Shown: piece after piece, positions 41,570 through 61,619 of the stretch
Layout of the letters: each line of letters begins with the position of its first letter
How positions within the stretch are numbered: position 1 is the stretch's first letter
Assembly: GCA_027923505.1 (NCBI GenBank)
Contig: BROI01000012.1
Location: 248,001-312,000 of the forward strand
DNA from: Mayamaea pseudoterrestris
Lineage: Eukaryota
Reading direction: 5' to 3'
DNA: 64,000 nucleotides
Program-made: the position numbers and the translations under genes
The notes under the pieces: model-generated
Told to the model about the DNA's origin: nothing
Seen by the model: only the letters and a program-made list of their open reading frames with translations
The model's database searches: none

Positions 41570-44111
41570 TTACGTTCGCCTTTGCCGCTCGTGGCCACCA
41601 AAAATGTTCTTGGTCGCTTTTTCGTTGTCCCGCTCTTCGTCAGTATTAGTCTTTGGCGGCGTTCCAAAAAATCCCCATGGGTTGCCAGCGCTTTGTGCAG
41701 CAAGTGAGGAAACATGATCACTTGTCGTACTAGACGTTGCTGCGGGTTCTGGCACTTCGTTTGCCGCAATAGATGGAGCAAAGATGGGTGGCAATGTCGC
41801 TGGAACAAAAGGTGCGTCCGTTGGATCATTGTCTACTTGCGATACACTTGGCCTTAAAACAGGGCTTGGAGCACCTTGGTCTTCGCTGCCACCGACAAGA
41901 GTGGACGGCTTTGCGGCAATCGGCCGCTGGTTGCTGCTGCTTCCGTCGTCGGTAGAAGGCGCTGGTGTACGTCGCGAGTTACTGGGAACATTGACGCTGC
42001 CGCTTGAATGTCCACTGCCGCTGCTCACAAGTGGTGTTGCTGGCTCCACACAATACGGAAGTCCTGATTCTGGATCATGCGTATCAAGTCCTTTGCTTGG
42101 AGCAGCGCCATTGGAGCCGGTTGCGCCCTTGCTAATTCCGCTTGAACCCGACCATTGCGATAGCGTACCCTTACTCCTCTTGATGCCCTGGCCATGGTCG
42201 ACGGATTTTTTGCTGCTGCCCTTACCTGGCTCTTCTATTTTGGAGTGTTTCTTGGCCGTTGACTTTGCGTCGTAAGCCTTCTTCTTGGTATAGCGTATCT
42301 TTGAACCACTCGCAGATGCCGAGTTTGTCATGAGCCTGCGTCGTGCGCCACTTCCCGACTGAGGAGGCGTCGCCGGATCTTTGACGGTCTCATCGTCATT
42401 CACAAAATTATTGTCATCATTAGTAAGGTCATCCGTTCCAGCATCGCCAGAGCTACTTGCTGCAGGCCAATGTCCGATACTGCCACCGCCAAAGTGGTTC
42501 ATGCCAGTGCCAGTCGAGCCTGATACTATACCAGGCTCTGGCGGTGCTACCCCATTCGATCCACTGTTTCCCTTGCCTCCATTACCAGTCTTGTCGCTGC
42601 TTGCCTTTGACACTCTCGCTGTCGGCCGCTGCAGTTTGAAGCCATGTCCACCGGAACCAGTTGGTGTGCCGCGCTCCTTCTTTTTCGGAAGCGGCCGTGG
42701 AACACACTTGATAGTTGGCGCGGATGCCTTTGACGACGAAACAGTTGGCGCGCGCACCAGTGGCACCGGTGCGTGGTCGACTGATCCAGATGACACTGAT
42801 GAGTGAGGAATGCTCTCAATTGATCCAGTTGGAACCGACGCCGATCCAGAAGACACTGGTGAGTGAGGTACACTCGCAATGGATCCAGACGGAATCGACG
42901 CCGATCCAGACGTCACTGGTCGAGACGCAGCAGCTGGTCTCCGCGTCGGTTCCGGTGTCGACGGCCGACGCGTCGGCTCCCGAGTCGTTGGTCGACGAGC
43001 AGGCTCGCGAGTGATGGGGCGCCGCGTAGGCTCACGCGTTGACGGCGGACGAGACGGGGCCCGCGTCGATACTGATTCAGTGGGAGACTCTGTCGTTGGA
43101 AATATCACGGGCGCCCTTGTCGGTGCCTTGGTGGTTGGAGTTTCTTTTGTCACTGTTGGACGTAGCGAGGGACGACTCGTGGGAGACTCCGTCGGCGCTG
43201 GTCCAGCCGCTGGACAGAGTCCAAAGGGTGGAACGCCAAGGTCGTTCTGTCGAGTGAGGAAGGAGCATCAATGGTTAGTGATGGATAAAAAATTTGGTTC
43301 ACCGCTTTAAATAAATATTGAATGTACTCTCGCATCATCTCCACTTACAAAGACTGTCCATCCAATCTGCTGTCCTTCCAATACAACGGGAAAGACTCCA
43401 CAATCATTCTCATAAATAATCAACCAAAAATTGACCAAGTCTTGCTCCTCGGCGTTTCTCCCAGCCAACGTGATTTGCAGTCCCTTGGGAATCATGTCAA
43501 CATTTTCTTCGTCTGGATCAATCTGCGCAATCACCGACGTGTACTTGAACGTGTCGCCGCTGCGAAAGTCTCCACTCAGCGGCGTTTGCGCAATGACGCG
43601 CAAGTCTTGGTTGAGCTCCAGTATTTGAATCGTCGTGACGCGCACGGGTGAAAAGTCTGTCACGTTCACCTGCTGCTCCGTGTTGACCTGTGTGAGTAAA
43701 TAGTGCATGTGCGTGTGTGAGAGGGTGAGAAATGGCGATGAGAGTGAATGAGATATTCATCATGGCGCTGCTCGCTGCTCGAGTCAATCAAAACTGCATA
43801 CTTGCTGCTGCTGCAGCAGCATTCGACTTGCTGATGCTCCCATAAGCTTGCTCAATGACTACTACTACTTTACTCACAATGCACGCCGTATCGTTAATGC
43901 CAGCCGCTCCCGACACCACCGTCTTGTCGCTGCAGTCAATGCCAAAGTCGAGCTTGAACTCGTAGGTGGCTGGCTGACAGGCGCAAACGTCGACGCCAAC
44001 GACTGGATTGTTGTTGTTACCTCCTTGCGCATTAACAGCCAGACTTGCCGATAAAAGTAGCAGTATAGTTGTTACAACGTTTGACGCTGTTGCGAGCGAG
44101 ACTGCAGTCAT
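41570..44111 (-). CDS. Secreted cell-surface/wall-type protein, 3 exons (44111-43878, 43687-43349, 43246-41570)
   Basis: Signal peptide; two in-frame GT-AG introns; Cys domain CACQPATYEF...; PTRRP repeats; RRRL followed by a K/S/G-rich region. Confidence 0.75.
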
Positions 44112-44216
44112 CTTTATTATTGAATTAGTAAGCAGTCAAGCTATGAGCTCTAGGACAAGATGTTGCTATATTTCTCAATGAGTCTCGCGGCCAAGTTTTT
44201 TCCTTGTATTACTGCA

Positions 44217-44427
44217 TGTTGGATCTAGAATATATCTTGCGCGCCCTTGAAGCGACACTAATGATTAAGCAGAACAGAGTCAATAAAACCACTTTACTTA
44301 TTTTCTCCAAGAAGTGATCGTCCTCGATCCACTCCTTCGGTTGCCGCTTACCGCGCTTACTTAAATGTGACCGTCTTCGTGACGTCACCGCTGCCGCTTC
44401 GGTTTGGGTTCTCATCCATGCTCAACA
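44217..44427 (-). repeat. 3' LTR
   Basis: Identical by eye to 49231-49441; preceded on the minus strand by purine-rich AAAGGAGTG (44436-44428, PPT-like). Confidence 0.95.
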
Positions 44428-45253
44428 CACTCCTTTGGGCCGAGTAGTACTTACTGCTCGAGGCCAGATTCATAACCAGGTTGCGGAGCTTGCCAAACTG
44501 GGCTCCCTGCAATGGTTTCGTGAAGAAATCCGCGACCATGTCTCCGGTCGGACAATGCTCAATGTTGACTTCACCAGCTGCCACGCGATCTTTCACAAAG
44601 AAGTACCGAACATTCATGTGTCGCGTGCGCTTTGTACTTGAGCTTCTGCCATTCTTTTCCAACAGCATTGAACTCATATTGTCTTGATACAATTTCGTGT
44701 CTTTGACCCCGAAACCTTGCGCCTTCAGAAAATATCCTGTCCACAGCAACTGCGGTAGCACATCATGAACTCCCACAACTTCGCTCTCCGTCGAGCTTCT
44801 TGTTACCAACTTCTGTTTAGCCGACGTACTGTACACTGATCCTTGGCCAAGTGTCATTGTTCCACCAGTGTGACCCTTCATGTCTGGGTGCACCGCGTAC
44901 GACGCATCCACCCACCACTGGACTATCCCGGACTGGTCCGCCTTCAGCGTCAACACCATGTCCACGCTTCCGCGTAAATATTTAATCACTCTTGCAGCCT
45001 TCTTATAGTCGTCTTCGTCAGGCTGCTGCAGCCTCGTGCTCAAGAAAGAAATCGCTGTGCGAATATCCGGTCGCGCTCGCTGACTCAGATACAGACACTG
45101 CATCACAATCGTCACAAAAATCTGCTTCTTCGCTTCGCTCAACATGACAGGATTTTCCGATATCTGAAACAAGTGACTGGCTGCCGGAGTAGCTGCCGTT
45201 CCATCCATGTCGTCTGGCGCATGATGCAGGATGTTCTTCACATAGTCAACCAT
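44357..45253 (-). CDS. Copia pol C-terminal part (end of RT plus RNase H), separated by a frameshift
   Basis: RPDIRTAISFL, WVDASYA, TRSSTESE, YQDNMS, RTRHMNVRYFFVKD and MVADFFTKPL motifs; ORF runs into the 3' LTR. Confidence 0.9.
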   Translation of the reverse strand: MVDYVKNILHHAPDDMDGTAATPAASHLFQISENPVMLSEAKKQIFVTIVMQCLYLSQRARPDIRTAISFLSTRLQQPDEDDYKKAARVIKYLRGSVDMVLTLKADQSGIVQWWVDASYAVHPDMKGHTGGTMTLGQGSVYSTSAKQKLVTRSSTESEVVGVHDVLPQLLWTGYFLKAQGFGVKDTKLYQDNMSSMLLEKNGRSSSTKRTRHMNVRYFFVKDRVAAGEVNIEHCPTGDMVADFFTKPLQGAQFGKLRNLVMNLASSSKYYSAQRSVLSMDENPNRSGSGDVTKTVTFK

Positions 45254-45261
45254 GTTGATTG

Positions 45262-48200
45262 CTACTTCTCAGGCTTAGTATAGTCCAATACCATGCCGAG
45301 GTAGTCGTGCACTTTTCCGCGTGACTTATTCATTGGAGTCTCCTTGCCAAACTCCTCATCCATCTGCGCGATGAACTCATCCACTACGCTCACGTCGACG
45401 TGCGAAATCTTCAAATCGTCCACGTGCCATCCCACGGTGATTTGCTTCCCATTGACAATCTTGTTGCACACACACGGATCGTACGGGTTCTTCTCGAAGC
45501 CCCACTCAAGCAATTTTGCGGACAACTTCTCCCAGAATAGTCGCGCTGCTCGAAGCGTACCATAAAGCGCCATGAGTAATTCAACATACATGACTTTCTC
45601 GCCATTCTCCATTGTGACGCAAGGCTCGTACATCTCGCGATCAATTTCCAACAGTAGCTCCACCATCTTCCCAGTGAAACGAACGTGCACCAACTCATCC
45701 ATTTCCGCTTGCATGAAAGCACCCGGTACATCAACCACAGCAACCTCGCGCCCTTCCATAGCGTCAATGATAGCTGTCAGAAAGATGGCCTCTGTCGCTA
45801 TCGTTGGAGATGCTGCGTCTTCCTTTGCAGTGTATGCTCGTTGCTTGCGTCCATCCGCGCATCCGCGTCCCTTCACAGTCCCGCATCTCTTGCGCTTGAG
45901 AAACATCAAATACGCCAGAGCGTCCTTGCGCTGCTGCGGAGTCAGAGTGCATTGGGGGACTGCCTTCATGACGTGCCTGTCGTGTAGCTGCTGCATTTCC
46001 TTGCGCACTGCCTCCACTCCAGCATCGCCAAAAGCCTTTAAACCTTGTCGCATATTCATCTGTGCCGTGACGAGTGGCTCCGACACTTCCTCTGCAGCGT
46101 CGAGCGTGAACAAATGAGCGAACGAGCGAGGTTTGCGCGCACGCAGGCCATACCGACCAGTGCGTGGGCCATAGCGCGCATCGAAATCCTCTTCGTCTGC
46201 AGCAGCTGGCACTCCTTCAATTTCGCCTTCATCGGGCACTCCTTCAATTTCGCCATCATCCACGGCTGGCGCGTCGTCAAGTTCGCCGTCAATGGCCTCA
46301 CCATCCTCGTCGTTCGGCACTCCTTCGATTGCGCCGTCAGCACCATCGTCGTCGTCGTCGTCGTCATCGGTCGCATTCACTCCTTCGCTTCCGCCGGCAG
46401 AGTCGTCGTCACCGCGAGAAGCGTCGTCATCATAATCAGAGTCATCATCATCCTCGGCGTCATCTTCGTGCCACATGACTGGCTCAGCAGCCTCCGCAAC
46501 ACGGTGGCGGTCCATGAACACGATGCCCGGATTGGCCTTCTGTTGACGAGCGAGACGATGCACGCGCTCAATGACATCATCAGGCATGGGCAAAGGCGTA
46601 GCGTGCCCACGATTCAGAACTTTGCCCGAAGACAAACTGAGGAAATAAAACCCACCCTGCACATTACCAGTCGGGCGCAGAGCCAGCGCACCGATCGTGC
46701 GCGCCTGCATGTCATTGCTGTGCGACTCATGCGTTTGCACATACTGACCAAATTCATACTTGCAATGCCGATTAAAGTCAACTGTCTGACCAGTCACAAT
46801 AGTGCGTGGACTGAGATCCTTCGAAATGCCACGCTCGTTCGGAAACGCATTCAACCAAAACACGGCAGACTTCGTCATTTCGATAACCAAGCGTGCCGGC
46901 ACGTGCTTAAATGGCAACGTGTTGTATGTCGCGCGCACCCGTTCTTTCACGACACGGATAAAACGTTCAATTTCGCCAACGTGTTCATCCTCAGATGTCG
47001 CATTGAGCGCCACTCCGAGATCAGCCAACGCGCCAAGCATTGGAGCGAACTCCCCATCCATCAGAGCCGCGACGACACGGAACCCACCGCGTGCGTAAAT
47101 CTTCAACACAGACTCGATTGCCTTCAACATAACCGGAAGCGTACGGTTTTGAATCACCTCAACCGTAGCAAAACGAATGCTGCGGGAGAACGTCACCAAC
47201 ATAGGGACTTTGTTGATATACATGATGTCAGCACAAAGAGTAACGTCTCGATAGCGACTCATGATAGCCGGTGGAAGCTGCTCAACAATCGCAGGCTTCA
47301 CCAGATGCGACGCGCGACGCGTCGTCTTTCCTTTTAACGAGCCAACATCTGGTCCAAAGATGTGCTCAGCAGCCAGGATGTCGGCCTTCGTCACAGGACA
47401 GTTCGGCAACTGATTGCTAGTAACGATGCGCAGGTAATCCTTGAGGCTTGGCCGTCCAATTTTGATTTGCAGTTCCCTAGCTCTAACAGCGCGTAAATAG
47501 TCATCATTGGTGTAGTTAGTACGGTTATCGTCTACCGTAGTCAACATCGCCACTCCATCCTTGACATCGCTGCGCTTGCCCTTCGAAAAGCTCTCGCAAA
47601 CATACAGCCCAGAGTCAGTCTCGACAAACTCTCGCTGCTTACCATCCGGCTTCTCCACAACGAACATTGGACGATCCACGCCGTGCATGAGATACTCCAC
47701 GGTAAACTTCTTGCGGACTTGCGCCAAACTCAAAATGTTCGCCAGTCCCTGCGGATACCACCACACCGGACCATAGCCCTCCAGGTCGCCCATCATGTTC
47801 GTCCTTACTGTACCAGCGTTGCACTTGATCACCATCCACGTTGGCACCGGGCGAATGTTCGTCAGCATCTTGGCGTTGCAGAACAGATCCACTGTCGACT
47901 GATTGTCCAAGAGCACAGCCTTCTTCGAGATGTTCACCTTCGGCGGCTGCGCGAACATGTATCCGACCTCATCGTCGTCATCGCTTTCTTCCTCGCTACC
48001 CAGCGTGAAGTGCTGCGCCCCACTAGCCTCTGCAGCCGGCGCACTCTCCGTAGACTCCGTTCTCGTAGGACAGTCTCGCTGCACATGACCAACCTGTTGA
48101 CAGGTCCAGCATCTGGGAGGGTCACGCGCTGTACCAGTCGTGTGAAACGCCACGCCCTCGTTCGTTGGCAACGTGGCTTCTCCATCCGCATGCTCACGAC

Positions 48201-49203
48201 GCTGCATGATGTTGTATGCATCGTGGATCGTCAACGGGAAGTTGTCGTGCCCGTCGAGGTAGCAGTTGCGCAAGTGCTTGCAATACCCAGCGTATTCGCC
48301 CGTTGCGCCACGCACGAAAAGCATCGCAAGCTCGAGCTCTTCGGCGGCCTTGATATCCTCCTTGTTCGCCTTGTTACGATTGTCATCCTTGGCAATGTTC
48401 AACGCCACAATCTCGTTGTGCATCGTGACGCCAACCGCCTTCGCCACGTCTGCCAGCGTGACCATGCTTTCGTAATATTTCTGCAGGCTTTCGCGCGCTC
48501 CTTGAGTACGTCCGAACAACTCAGCTTGAATGTCCACGACTTGATCCACAAGTTTGCAGCGCCCTTCGTACGTATGCGAGATCTCCTTGATAATCGCCAG
48601 CAACTTAATTCCGTCCGTGTCCTCCTCGGCGTCTCGGAACTTGGCGTGCGACTTGACACGATCCTTCATACGCTCCGTGCATTGTCCATGCAACACGGCG
48701 TAGAGACCAGCGAGGAAGTCGGAGTATACACGCACGCGCTCGACATGCTCTTTCTTGTCGGCCTTGTATTCCTCGAGCATTATGGACCAGTCCGAGTCCG
48801 TCGTGTCGGCATCCTTCGTTGGACGTGCAGGCTCGTCAGGAATCTCCAGTTCCACGTTGCGCATGCCCTTGAGCAGCTCCTTGGTATATTTCTTGTAGGA
48901 GCGCCCGACGAAAGTGATGATCTCGTTCGTCGTACGGATGAATCCATCGGGATCGCGCGAACCGTTATAGTCGTAGATGAATCCAGCGAGCGTCGGCTCG
49001 CTTCCTTGGAAATTTCCACTCGGCGCACGACTCGGTCCGTTGAGTCTGTTACCATTGCCTTGATTCCCGGAACGATTCCCAGCACGATTCCCACGACGAT
49101 AATGACGGTTGCGTCGGTTTCCTTCGCTTGCTGGCGGAGCGGGAGGTGCACCTCCACCGCTCGACGCCGCTCCTGTCGTCGGAGTATTGCTCGTCGAAGA
49201 CAT
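45262..49203 (-). CDS. Copia gag-pol polyprotein (gag CCHC, protease, integrase, RT)
   Basis: CWTCQQVGHVQRDC; LLDNQST; ADIMY...MDGEF...EIERFIRVVKE; KGRGCADG, DVPGAFM, LYGTLRAARLFW, HVDD. Confidence 0.95.
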   Translation of the reverse strand: MSSTSNTPTTGAASSGGGAPPAPPASEGNRRNRHYRRGNRAGNRSGNQGNGNRLNGPSRAPSGNFQGSEPTLAGFIYDYNGSRDPDGFIRTTNEIITFVGRSYKKYTKELLKGMRNVELEIPDEPARPTKDADTTDSDWSIMLEEYKADKKEHVERVRVYSDFLAGLYAVLHGQCTERMKDRVKSHAKFRDAEEDTDGIKLLAIIKEISHTYEGRCKLVDQVVDIQAELFGRTQGARESLQKYYESMVTLADVAKAVGVTMHNEIVALNIAKDDNRNKANKEDIKAAEELELAMLFVRGATGEYAGYCKHLRNCYLDGHDNFPLTIHDAYNIMQRREHADGEATLPTNEGVAFHTTGTARDPPRCWTCQQVGHVQRDCPTRTESTESAPAAEASGAQHFTLGSEEESDDDDEVGYMFAQPPKVNISKKAVLLDNQSTVDLFCNAKMLTNIRPVPTWMVIKCNAGTVRTNMMGDLEGYGPVWWYPQGLANILSLAQVRKKFTVEYLMHGVDRPMFVVEKPDGKQREFVETDSGLYVCESFSKGKRSDVKDGVAMLTTVDDNRTNYTNDDYLRAVRARELQIKIGRPSLKDYLRIVTSNQLPNCPVTKADILAAEHIFGPDVGSLKGKTTRRASHLVKPAIVEQLPPAIMSRYRDVTLCADIMYINKVPMLVTFSRSIRFATVEVIQNRTLPVMLKAIESVLKIYARGGFRVVAALMDGEFAPMLGALADLGVALNATSEDEHVGEIERFIRVVKERVRATYNTLPFKHVPARLVIEMTKSAVFWLNAFPNERGISKDLSPRTIVTGQTVDFNRHCKYEFGQYVQTHESHSNDMQARTIGALALRPTGNVQGGFYFLSLSSGKVLNRGHATPLPMPDDVIERVHRLARQQKANPGIVFMDRHRVAEAAEPVMWHEDDAEDDDDSDYDDDASRGDDDSAGGSEGVNATDDDDDDDDGADGAIEGVPNDEDGEAIDGELDDAPAVDDGEIEGVPDEGEIEGVPAAADEEDFDARYGPRTGRYGLRARKPRSFAHLFTLDAAEEVSEPLVTAQMNMRQGLKAFGDAGVEAVRKEMQQLHDRHVMKAVPQCTLTPQQRKDALAYLMFLKRKRCGTVKGRGCADGRKQRAYTAKEDAASPTIATEAIFLTAIIDAMEGREVAVVDVPGAFMQAEMDELVHVRFTGKMVELLLEIDREMYEPCVTMENGEKVMYVELLMALYGTLRAARLFWEKLSAKLLEWGFEKNPYDPCVCNKIVNGKQITVGWHVDDLKISHVDVSVVDEFIAQMDEEFGKETPMNKSRGKVHDYLGMVLDYTKPEK

Positions 49204-49230
49204 GTCTTTTCACTCGCTTCTTGGAGAAAA

Positions 49231-49441
49231 TGTTGGATCTAGAATATATCTTGCGCGCCCTTGAAGCGACACTAATGATTAAGCAGAACAGAGTCAATAA
49301 AACCACTTTACTTATTTTCTCCAAGAAGTGATCGTCCTCGATCCACTCCTTCGGTTGCCGCTTACCGCGCTTACTTAAATGTGACCGTCTTCGTGACGTC
49401 ACCGCTGCCGCTTCGGTTTGGGTTCTCATCCATGCTCAACA
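49231..49441 (-). repeat. 5' LTR
   Basis: 211 bp, TG...CA termini, followed by a non-tRNA PBS-position sequence and the gag ATG 27 nt downstream. Confidence 0.95.
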
Positions 49442-49874
49442 CTGCAGACTCCTTGCTCGACTCTCATGGTCGGAGACGAGACGACTGGTATCTGTTATTC
49501 GCCTCTGCCATTTTTTCGTTCGCTCCAACAGTCACCGCCATTGCCGAAAAATACATCATTTTCGTCAATAATTAACGTGGAAGTAGTATACGCCTTGCTT
49601 GACAGTACAAGTAGTCGAGGACGAGAATGGCGAGCTTGGTCAGTTGTGATGGACGGCGTGTGATGCCATGGCCAAGTTTGGCGGTCGATCGCCACACGGA
49701 ACATGAGTACCGATGCGAGGGTAGAAGATTTGTGAACCGATGCGACTTCAAGATCGCGTGACAGCCAACGCGTTTCATTTTATCGGCAAATCAGCAAATC
49801 AGCATGGGATCATCATTTACTACGTAACCAAGAAGGTACTCTCTCACCACAAACGTTATTTGAGCAACTGTTAC

Positions 49875-61007: not shown

Positions 61008-61191
61008 GAACAAGAAATCCAACCTAGATGCCTCCGTTTACTACACAAAGACGCGATTGCAGAAAACTTGGGTTAGCTAGGTGTAGCAACCCAAGCCGCC
61101 GCCACTGAGCTAGCAGAGCTAGAGCAGAGGCTGGATCCGCGCCGAGGGCGGGATCCCTTGCCAGCTGCTGCAGTTGCTGCTGCTGAACTCA
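61008..61191 (-). repeat. Terminal direct repeat B2
   Basis: Identical by eye to 61436-61619 (offset 428). Confidence 0.92.
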
Positions 61192-61435
61192 GGGATGGGC
61201 TAGGGTGGGTGCTTTAATCTATCTTTCTTACAGTCCTTGAACGGGAGTTTCAAGGCAAACAGACCAAAAAGAATGAGGACGAGTTGCTTGCTTCCTTTTG
61301 GTGGGAAGGCGGGCTTCTCAGTCCCTGGAGAGGACCCATGACCTCTGGTCTTGAAACGGAACGCCAATGAGTCATTTATGACGTCCTTGAGCCAATCAAA
61401 TCGTCGCTTTTCTCCGACACTCCAGAATCCCGAAT

Positions 61436-61619
61436 GAACAAGAAATCCAACCTAGATGCCTCCGTTTACTACACAAAGACGCGATTGCAGAAAACTTGGG
61501 TTAGCTAGGTGTAGCAACCCAAGCCGCCGCCACTGAGCTAGCAGAGCTAGAGCAGAGGCTGGATCCGCGCCGAGGGCGGGATCCCTTGCCAGCTGCTGCA
61601 GTTGCTGCTGCTGAACTCA
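61436..61619 (-). repeat. Internal direct repeat B1
   Basis: Identical by eye to 61008-61191; on the minus strand it begins at the YR stop codon. Confidence 0.92.

What the first reader, a model, noticed from the sequence alone, without database searches (positions are those of the whole stretch)
49214..49331. Copia element with no tRNA PBS: the PBS pairs with its own LTR, suggesting Tf1-like self-priming
Seen: on the element strand the 5' LTR is followed directly by TTTTCTCCAAGAAGCGA, with no TGG as expected for pairing to a tRNA 3' end. Plus-strand 49217-49231 (cttcttggagaaaat) is the exact reverse complement of 49314-49328 inside the LTR, extendable by 2 bp after one mismatch. On the transcript the LTR segment starts in an initiator-like TCACTT, about 40 nt after an AT-rich CATTTAAGTAA. 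Established: S. pombe Tf1 (a gypsy-type element) primes from the 5' end of its own mRNA, whereas copia elements normally use tRNA. Inference: this copia lineage self-primes. I cannot confirm whether this has already been reported for CoDi elements.
Basis: partly seen in the sequence, partly recalled or inferred. Interest (0 to 1): 0.8.

Follow-up and report, generated by a model that had tools for sequence, protein, structure and literature searches.

The report
Self-priming copia retrotransposon in a diatom
A young diatom jumping gene appears to start copying itself using the first 15 letters of its own RNA instead of a host tRNA, and a whole clade of its environmental relatives keeps the same arrangement with different letters.

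Summary
Window 44217-49441 (minus strand) holds a 5,225-bp Ty1/copia element with identical 211-bp LTRs and a TGCAG target duplication. The 15 nt starting at the last A of its 5' LTR (49231-49217) are the exact complement of 49328-49314 inside that LTR.

The pairing is conserved. Of 37 sequences with enough upstream DNA (WIN plus 36 metagenomic relatives, 33-60% protein identity), 34 pass a strict scan for the same architecture. Two of the three misses have it in relaxed form, and one contig is too short to test. There are 32 different arm sequences. Pairing holds in 98% of cells against 61% after shuffling.

The LTR arm begins directly after a conserved TCA. This fits the published diatom initiator TCAH(+1)W, so the predicted transcription start is 49328 and the primer is the 5' end of the mRNA. 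No PBS starts with TGG.

The best explanation is Tf1-like self-priming (confidence 0.8). It is not categorically new: self-priming is proven for Tf1/sushi elements and already predicted for the plant copia TAR lineage. I found no report of it for diatom copia elements. RNA 5' ends and host tRNAs could not be tested.

The parts
44217..49441 (-). Complete Ty1/copia-type LTR retrotransposon, 5,225 bp
   Evidence: Identical LTR pair, TG..CA ends and 5-bp TSD, gag-IN-RT coding region
49231..49441 (-). 5' LTR, 211 bp, TGTTG...CAACA
   Evidence: 100% identical to the 3' copy. Boundaries set by the TSD
44217..44427 (-). 3' LTR, 211 bp
49442..49446 (-). Target-site duplication TGCAG, 5' side
44212..44216 (-). 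Target-site duplication TGCAG, 3' side
49329..49331 (-). Initiator-like TCA. The next base, C49328, is the predicted transcription start.
   Evidence: TCAHW is present in 25 of 32 families, with the arm starting right after CA in 26 of 32. The published diatom Inr-like motif is TCAH(+1)W (PMC4686930). The start itself is inferred, because no RNA data were available.
49314..49328 (-). Putative self-primer CUUCUUGGAGAAAAU, predicted nt +1 to +15 of the mRNA
   Evidence: Exact complement of the PBS; covaries with the PBS in relatives
49253..49272 (-). U5 hairpin between primer and PBS
   Evidence: Present in the MFE fold. A homologous hairpin in 16 aligned sequences has 8 pairs, 7 of them with compensatory changes.
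49217..49231 (-). Primer-binding site AUUUUCUCCAAGAAG. It begins at the last A of the LTR.
   Evidence: Same position in relatives.
49216..49216 (-). C directly 3' of the PBS duplex, opposite A49329
   Evidence: C at this position in 22 of 32 families against a 19-23% background. Its meaning is unexplained.
45262..49203 (-). ORF1, 1,313 aa: gag with zinc knuckle (aa 364-379), integrase fold (aa 540-900), RVT_2 reverse transcriptase (aa 1106-1304)
44357..45253 (-). ORF2, 298 aa: rest of RT and the C-terminal part of pol, in another frame. It ends 70 nt inside the 3' LTR.
   Evidence: Contigs of 4 runs carry one extra base behind 45269, which puts ORF1 and ORF2 in one frame.
44430..44436 (-). 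Polypurine tract AAAGGAG, followed by TG and then the 3' LTR
   Evidence: Relatives show ..AGGAGTG|TGTTG at the same place.

Best explanation
This is a recently inserted diatom Ty1/copia retrotransposon that primes minus-strand DNA synthesis with the 5' end of its own transcript, as S. pombe Tf1 does, rather than with a tRNA.

Shown:
- The 15 nt starting at the last base of the 5' LTR are exactly complementary to 15 nt inside the LTR.
- That complementarity is kept, with different sequences, throughout a clade of relatives.
- The LTR arm starts directly after a conserved TCA.

Inferred:
- Pol II starts at C49328, the +1 of a diatom TCAH(+1)W initiator.
- Nt 1-15 of the RNA fold back on the PBS and close an 82-nt loop that carries a conserved U5 hairpin.
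- The element's RNase H cuts after about nt 15.
- RT extends that 15-nt RNA through U5/R.
- Plus-strand strong-stop synthesis later copies the RNA primer and rewrites the PBS from it. This would explain why the two arms stay strictly Watson-Crick and change together.
For: Anatomy: identical LTRs, TSD, PPT, and the PBS position.

Conservation:
- 34 of 37 testable sequences pass a strict scan: exact match of at least 14 nt, 3' arm at or just after the AACA LTR end, loop 25-140 nt.
- Of the 3 misses, L020 has an exact 15-nt pair with a 150-nt loop. L050 has 13 Watson-Crick pairs plus 2 G.U in an old copy. The L044 contig ends before the arm region.
- There are 32 distinct arm sequences among the 40 of 80 sequences that carry the feature.

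Specificity:
- Each family's own arms match over 14-17 nt. Only 6 of 992 cross-family pairings reach 12 nt, all between similar families.
- The antisense strand gives 2 hits against 39 on the sense strand.

Formal count on 17 families:
- 98.0% of 254 cells are paired, against 61.2 +/- 2.3% in shuffles (0 of 500 reach the observed value) and 35-49% with slid partners.
- 14 of 15 pairs change on both sides, and there is only 1 G.U cell.

No room for another PBS: in L006, L024, L053 and L063 the 3' arm begins only 16-18 nt before the gag ATG. No PBS begins with TGG.

Start of the arm: TCAHW in 25 of 32 families, and the arm begins at the nt after CA in 26 of 32. This matches the published diatom Inr-like TCAH(+1)W.

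RNA structure: the MFE fold of the predicted 5' UTR is closed by the 15-bp stem. A covarying U5 hairpin is present.

The element also meets the operational criterion used for plant elements, at least 10 bp of LTR complementarity starting 0-5 bp after the LTR.
Against: - There is no RNA evidence: the transcription start, the RNase H cut and the primer on strong-stop DNA are all untested (one search listed no RNA holder).
- Host tRNAs could not be compared. No genome is held, and no tRNA lies in the window or in 13 long loci.
- The fold z-score of the WIN 5' UTR is modest (-1.88; 8 of 200 shuffles fold as well).
- After removal of the first 15 nt, the R homology left for the first strand transfer depends on an unknown poly(A) site.
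- Relatives are environmental contigs of unknown host, and many are circularly collapsed assemblies.
- The 32 families were selected by the scan itself. The unbiased figure is 34 of 37.
Confidence: 0.8

Rival explanations
1. The same LTR-derived 15-mer primes in trans. The 5' end of the second packaged RNA, or a short LTR-derived RNA, anneals to the PBS between molecules instead of by fold-back.
For: The complementarity and covariation do not distinguish cis from trans pairing. The loop between the arms varies from 34 to 150 nt, so the stem does not need a fixed geometry.
Against: Loops cluster tightly at 86-109 nt in most families, and they hold a conserved hairpin. This suggests a defined intramolecular fold.
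Confidence: 0.1
2. The long-range stem is an RNA structure for packaging, dimerisation or translational control. The true primer is something else, such as a tRNA fragment.
For: Long-range 5' UTR pairings exist in other retroelements (recalled, not from a call). Host tRNAs were not available for comparison.
Against: - The 3' arm always sits exactly where the minus-strand primer must bind, at or next to the last LTR base.
- In four families it fills nearly the whole leader up to the gag ATG.
- 32 different PBS sequences cannot all match conserved tRNAs, and none starts with TGG.
- The duplex almost lacks G.U pairs (1 of 254 cells), while the U5 hairpin has many. This fits templated copying better than selection on RNA folding alone.
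Confidence: 0.07
3. The match is a chance inverted repeat in an AT-rich region.
For: The arms are AT-rich, 85% on average, which raises chance matches. Shuffled columns still pair in 61% of cells.
Against: The position and exactness recur in 34 of 37 testable sequences. Cross-family and slid controls fail. The WIN arm itself is not AT-poor but is still exact over 15 nt.
Confidence: 0.01

Closest known systems
Tf1/Tf2 of Schizosaccharomyces pombe and the Tf1/sushi group (Ty3/gypsy chromoviruses)
   Same: The PBS next to the 5' LTR is complementary to the 5' end of the element's own mRNA. There is a fold-back duplex and a stem-loop in U5. No tRNA PBS is present (mechanism as described in PMC7175516 and PMC4600332, passages read).
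   Different: Tf1 uses the first 11 nt, with a cut between nt 11 and 12; here the duplex is 14-17 nt. Tf1 is a Ty3/gypsy element, whereas this one has an RVT_2 reverse transcriptase with the integrase upstream of RT. Here the duplex usually includes the last base of the LTR. Tf1's mechanism is proven by experiment; this one is inferred from sequence.
Plant Ty1/copia TAR lineage (Houba, Osr-1), predicted self-priming
   Same: A copia-type element with LTR-internal complementarity to the region starting 0-5 bp after the 5' LTR. This is the criterion of PMC6317226, and the window element meets it.
   Different: The hosts are land plants, and the relationship to the diatom clade was not tested. 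I could not see the plant supplementary tables, so arm positions relative to the transcription start cannot be compared.
Fungal GalEa copia elements with a 'Conserved Hairpin Site' in place of a PBS (PMC5445492)
   Same: A copia lineage that the paper places with CoDi-like elements in 'branch 1'. It lacks a tRNA PBS and has a conserved pairing element that includes the final A of the 5' LTR.
   Different: The GalEa site is a local palindrome or hairpin, and the authors state they found no complementary sequence in U5. Here the partner lies in the LTR, 34-150 nt upstream.
CoDi elements, the copia elements of diatoms (Maumus et al. 2009, PMC2806351)
   Same: Diatom host, size of about 5.2 kb, short TG..CA LTRs, a single long ORF, and a gag zinc knuckle in some groups (section 18 read).
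   Different: The main text does not discuss a PBS or priming. Additional file 1 could not be opened. Membership in a named CoDi group was not tested.
Copia elements primed by an internal half of initiator tRNA-Met (Osser, Bryco and Gymco-II in PMC6317226; Drosophila copia, recalled)
   Same: Copia elements whose PBS does not begin with TGG.
   Different: Their PBS is one conserved sequence that matches a tRNA. Here the PBS differs in each family and matches the element's own LTR.

Membership tests
Self-primed LTR retrotransposons (mechanistic class defined by Tf1) | PBS adjacent to the 5' LTR is complementary to a segment of the element's own LTR/R region | tested here: met
   15 of 15 nt in WIN; 34 of 37 testable sequences (misses resolved)
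Self-primed LTR retrotransposons (mechanistic class defined by Tf1) | The complementary segment is the very 5' end of the mRNA | tested here: inconclusive
   The arm starts at the +1 of a TCAH(+1)W initiator-like motif in 26 of 32 families, but no RNA 5'-end data were available
Self-primed LTR retrotransposons (mechanistic class defined by Tf1) | No tRNA-complementary PBS | tested here: inconclusive
   No TGG start, and 32 different PBS sequences. Host tRNAs were unavailable.
Self-primed LTR retrotransposons (mechanistic class defined by Tf1) | RNase H cut at the 3' end of the paired 5' segment releases the primer | not testable with these tools
   Needs primer extension or cDNA sequencing
Self-primed LTR retrotransposons (mechanistic class defined by Tf1) | U5 stem-loop next to the primer/PBS duplex (U5-IR-like; seen only as the title of Lin and Levin 1998 in a reference list) | tested here: met
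   Conserved hairpin of 8 pairs, 7 with compensatory changes, in 16 sequences. Present in the WIN fold. Its function is untested.
Tf1/sushi group (Ty3/gypsy) | Gypsy-type RT and domain order PR-RT-RH-IN | tested here: not met
   RVT_2 (copia-type) RT at aa 1106-1304. Integrase fold at aa 540-900, upstream of RT.
Ty1/copia (Pseudoviridae) | Copia-type RT (Pfam RVT_2) | tested here: met
   E = 2.1e-14, 54.2 bits against a cut-off of 31.6
Ty1/copia (Pseudoviridae) | Integrase lies upstream of RT | tested here: met
   Model of aa 540-900 (pLDDT 84.9) matches RSV, HIV and PFV integrases at E about 1e-8. Pfam rve itself was not detected.
Ty1/copia (Pseudoviridae) | LTRs with TG..CA ends and a 5-bp target duplication | tested here: met
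CoDi groups of diatom copia elements | Phylogenetic grouping with the reference CoDi1-7 sequences | not tested
   No reference sequences were at hand. The host is a diatom, judged by the 99% identical protein named Mayamaea pseudoterrestris and by relatives named Nitzschia and Fragilaria.
Plant TAR lineage | Phylogenetic grouping with TAR RT/RH/IN | not tested
   No TAR sequences were fetched

The most novel reading that the evidence does not exclude
The PBS of this clade is rewritten in every replication cycle from the capped 5' end of the mRNA. The complementarity stops exactly at the initiator +1, the duplex is strictly Watson-Crick, and the C that follows the PBS in 22 of 32 families would be the copy of the m7G cap made when plus-strand strong-stop DNA runs to the end of the RNA primer. 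If so, these genomes carry a heritable record of cap-templated nucleotide addition by a retrotransposon RT, and the PBS boundary marks transcription starts without any RNA data. The cap-copying property of reverse transcriptases is recalled, not taken from a call.
Probability: 0.25. Interest if true: 0.7.

Novelty: new member of a known kind. Interest (0 to 1): 0.55.

Why it matters
Self-priming was established in one gypsy lineage (Tf1/sushi) and predicted in one plant copia lineage. This finding adds a whole clade of copia elements from diatoms, a distant eukaryotic supergroup and a major group of primary producers whose genomes are shaped by copia elements.

The comparative signal is unusually clean, with 32 arm/PBS pairs. 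That makes the mechanism directly testable in transformable diatoms. It also gives annotators a simple rule for elements that PBS-by-tRNA searches would flag as lacking a PBS. It suggests that priming mode changes repeatedly in LTR elements, or that self-priming is old.

The family in the window looks active. Its LTRs are identical, the insertion is polymorphic, and read depth is more than 20-fold above the flanks in one run.

Tried and rejected
- **Host genome:** ARAGORN found no tRNA in the window or in 13 long loci.
- **Sequencing runs:** no RNA holder listed, so there are no data on the transcription start. All four laid runs are contigs and cannot show RNA ends.
- **Viral-contig scan:** no relative found.
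- **Earlier findings:** The search of earlier findings returned nothing.
- **Integrase by sequence:** Pfam found no rve domain even at E <= 1. A PDB profile search returned only zinc-knuckle matches. The integrase was shown by fold instead.
- **First upstream scan:** it used a 200-nt window and missed a subgroup whose PBS lies 189-494 nt before gag. It was rescanned.
- **Alignment A2:** MAFFT misplaced the 5' ends of WIN, L006 and L007. The formal pair count therefore used A5, which holds 17 of the 32 families with loops of 93-105 nt. WIN is not in it, and the L036 row carries a one-column shift.
- **Transcript-like contig ends:** I found no poly(A) ends.
- **Literature:**
  - Searches for self-priming with copia, CoDi, diatom, algae or stramenopile found no report for diatom elements.
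  - The supplements of PMC6317226 were not seen.
  - The original Tf1 papers are not held, so Tf1 details come from passages in PMC7175516 and PMC4600332.

Full report
**What is there**

On the minus strand, window 44217-49441 is a complete LTR retrotransposon of 5,225 bp.
- The two LTRs are 100% identical (repeat 44216-44428 / 49230-49442).
- The flanking TGCAG on both sides sets the true LTRs at 211 bp, TGTTG...CAACA.
- A polypurine tract AAAGGAG precedes the 3' LTR.
- The gag ATG is at 49203.
- ORF1 (1,313 aa) carries a CCHC zinc knuckle (aa 364-379) and a copia-type RT, Pfam RVT_2, E = 2.1e-14, aa 1106-1304.
- Pfam does not see an integrase. However, a model of aa 540-900 (mean pLDDT 84.9) matches RSV, HIV and foamy-virus integrases at E about 1e-8.
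- The order is therefore gag-IN-RT, that of Ty1/copia.
- The best protein hit, 99% identical, is named as a hypothetical protein of the pennate diatom Mayamaea pseudoterrestris. Other named relatives are from Nitzschia and Fragilaria.

**The observation**

The LTR is followed directly by TTTTCTCCAAGAAGCGA, with no TGG.
- The exact part is 15 nt and includes the last A of the LTR.
- The 14-nt core occurs exactly only at the three element sites in 64 kb.

**Relatives**

A profile of 26 polyproteins recovered 79 metagenomic loci encoding relatives at 33-60% identity. Many are circularly collapsed contigs holding one LTR.

I located gag with tblastn and scanned the upstream DNA. The scan looked for an exact inverted repeat whose 3' arm starts at or just after an AACA LTR end.
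- 42 sequences had a gag N-terminal hit, and 37 of them (WIN plus 36 loci) had at least 200 nt upstream.
- 34 of these 37 passed, with arms of 14-17 nt.
- The three misses were examined:
  - L050, an old copy whose LTRs are 93% alike, has 13 Watson-Crick pairs plus 2 G.U pairs.
  - The L044 contig ends 87 nt upstream of its LTR end, so the arm region is missing.
- Over all 80 sequences, 40 carry the feature, with 32 distinct arm sequences. The rest are mostly fragments without the LTR-leader region.

**Controls**

- Each family's own arms match over 14-17 nt. Only 6 of 992 cross-family pairings reach 12 nt, all between visibly similar families.
- An earlier window-based scan gave a median cross match of 8 nt, with 2.1% of 812 pairings at 12 nt or more.
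- The antisense strand gave 2 hits against 39 on the sense strand; one of the 39 is a wrap artefact in L069.
- On an alignment of 17 of the 32 families (A5; WIN is not in it, see Tried and rejected):
  - The named 15-pair helix has 98.0% of 254 cells paired.
  - Shuffles give 61.2 +/- 2.3%, and 0 of 500 reach the observed value.
  - Partners slid by 1-3 columns give 35-49%.
  - 14 of 15 pairs show changes on both sides.
  - Only one cell is G.U.
- L056 differs from WIN in the arm, and its PBS carries the matching changes on the other side.

**Where the arms sit**

- The 3' arm starts at the last A of the LTR in 20 families and one base later in 12. This is exactly where a minus-strand primer must anneal.
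- In L006, L024, L053 and L063 it begins 16-18 nt before the gag ATG, leaving no room for another PBS.
- The 5' arm starts directly after a conserved CA in 26 of 32 families. It starts one base earlier in 5 and one base later in 1.
- The pentamer TCAHW is present in 25 of 32 families.
- Upstream of this point there is no conservation and no TATA-like box.
- A paper on diatom promoters reports CAY(+1)A and proposes TCAH(+1)W as the diatom initiator-like motif, with +1 being the base after CA (PMC4686930, passages read).
- The complementary segment therefore begins at the predicted first base of the transcript.
- Beyond that boundary, pairing falls to chance level or below (5 of 32).

**RNA structure**

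- Folding 49329-49204 gives an MFE structure closed by the 15-bp stem. The energy is -31.8 kcal/mol and the z-score a modest -1.88.
- The loop contains a hairpin homologous to one found by RNAalifold in 16 sequences. It has 8 pairs, and 7 of them have compensatory changes.
- That hairpin tolerates G.U pairs, whereas the primer/PBS duplex almost never does.
- This contrast fits a duplex that is regenerated by copying rather than kept only by selection on folding.

**Mechanism**

Shown:
- The position of the two arms.
- Their exactness.
- Their covariation.
- The initiator-like context.

Inferred by analogy with Tf1, where the first 11 nt pair with the PBS and RNase H cuts between nt 11 and 12 (PMC7175516, passage):
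- The transcript starts at 49328.
- Nt 1-15 fold back on 49231-49217.
- RNase H cuts after about nt 15.
- RT extends the RNA through U5/R.
- Plus-strand strong-stop synthesis later copies the primer and resets the PBS.

Open points:
- Where the poly(A) site lies, and so how much R remains for the first strand transfer.
- Whether pairing is in cis or in trans.

**Comparison with what is known**

- The element works like Tf1 but is not a Tf1/sushi member, because its RT type and domain order are those of copia.
- Self-priming in copia is not new in principle. Neumann et al. 2019 predict it for the plant TAR lineage and cite an earlier proposal for Houba and Osr-1 (PMC6317226, passages). The window element meets their operational criterion.
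- Fungal GalEa elements, which Donnart et al. 2017 place near CoDi-like elements, lack a PBS. They have a local hairpin site, and the authors found no LTR partner for it (PMC5445492, passages).
- The CoDi paper does not treat priming in its main text (PMC2806351), and its Additional file 1 could not be opened.
- Six full-text searches found no report of self-priming in diatom elements.
- I therefore file this as a new member of a known kind: a whole diatom clade.

**Verdict**

- The missing pieces are RNA 5' ends, the primer on cDNA, and a comparison with the host tRNA set.
- Interest is moderate (0.55): the comparative case is clean and testable, and it extends a rare priming mode to a new supergroup, but it does not reveal a new mechanism.

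Noticed in passing
window 45269-45270: ORF1 and ORF2 are separated by a frameshift inside the RT domain. Contigs of all four laid runs carry one extra base behind 45269: all of the depth in X1, X2 and X4, and 1180.8 of 2647.6 in X6. That base puts both ORFs in one frame of about 1,615 aa. The frameshift in the window is therefore an assembly error or specific to this copy.
   Followed up: partly
window 44357-44440: The pol reading frame runs through the polypurine tract and 70 nt into the 3' LTR, and it stops at TAA 44359-44357. The conserved C-terminal RSVL of the protein family is the translation of the PPT/LTR junction AGGAGTGTGTTG.
   Followed up: partly
window 49216 and the matching position in 32 families: The base directly 3' of the PBS duplex is C in 22 of 32 families, A in 8 and G in 2. 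The background is 19% C (binomial p about 7e-10; 7e-8 if T is excluded). It lies opposite the A of TCA, or one base further out in the five families whose arm includes that A. One possible explanation is a copy of the mRNA cap. This remains unexplained.
   Followed up: partly
window 43900-49760 in run X6: The element has a depth of about 1,100-1,500 (LTR bins up to 4,150) against about 50 in the flanks. One contig joins 44164 to 49442 and skips the element, on a diverged haplotype. This indicates a multicopy family and a polymorphic or heterozygous insertion.
   Followed up: partly
L010, L014, L019, L020, L030, L033, L039, L043: This subgroup shares one primer (CTCTTTTTACGAAAT) and has a long leader of 189-494 nt between the PBS and the estimated gag start. 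The stretch just upstream of gag is similar between members and may be coding or a conserved RNA.
   Followed up: no
L056:2284-2364: The arm CTTCTTGGAGTAAA differs from the window's CTTCTTGGAGAAAAT, and the PBS shows the matching changes on the other side. The loop is only 53 nt.
   Followed up: no
window 42783-42902 and 61008-61619: There is a 60-nt tandem pair (83% alike) just outside the element and a 184-nt direct repeat with 428-nt spacing. Neither was examined.
   Followed up: no
5' arm flank in relatives: The 5' arm is usually followed by YTRGTTT (for example CTGGTTT or TTGGTTT). WIN has GTGGTTTT 9 nt further on. This may be part of the polyadenylation region of R. It was not tested.
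   Followed up: no
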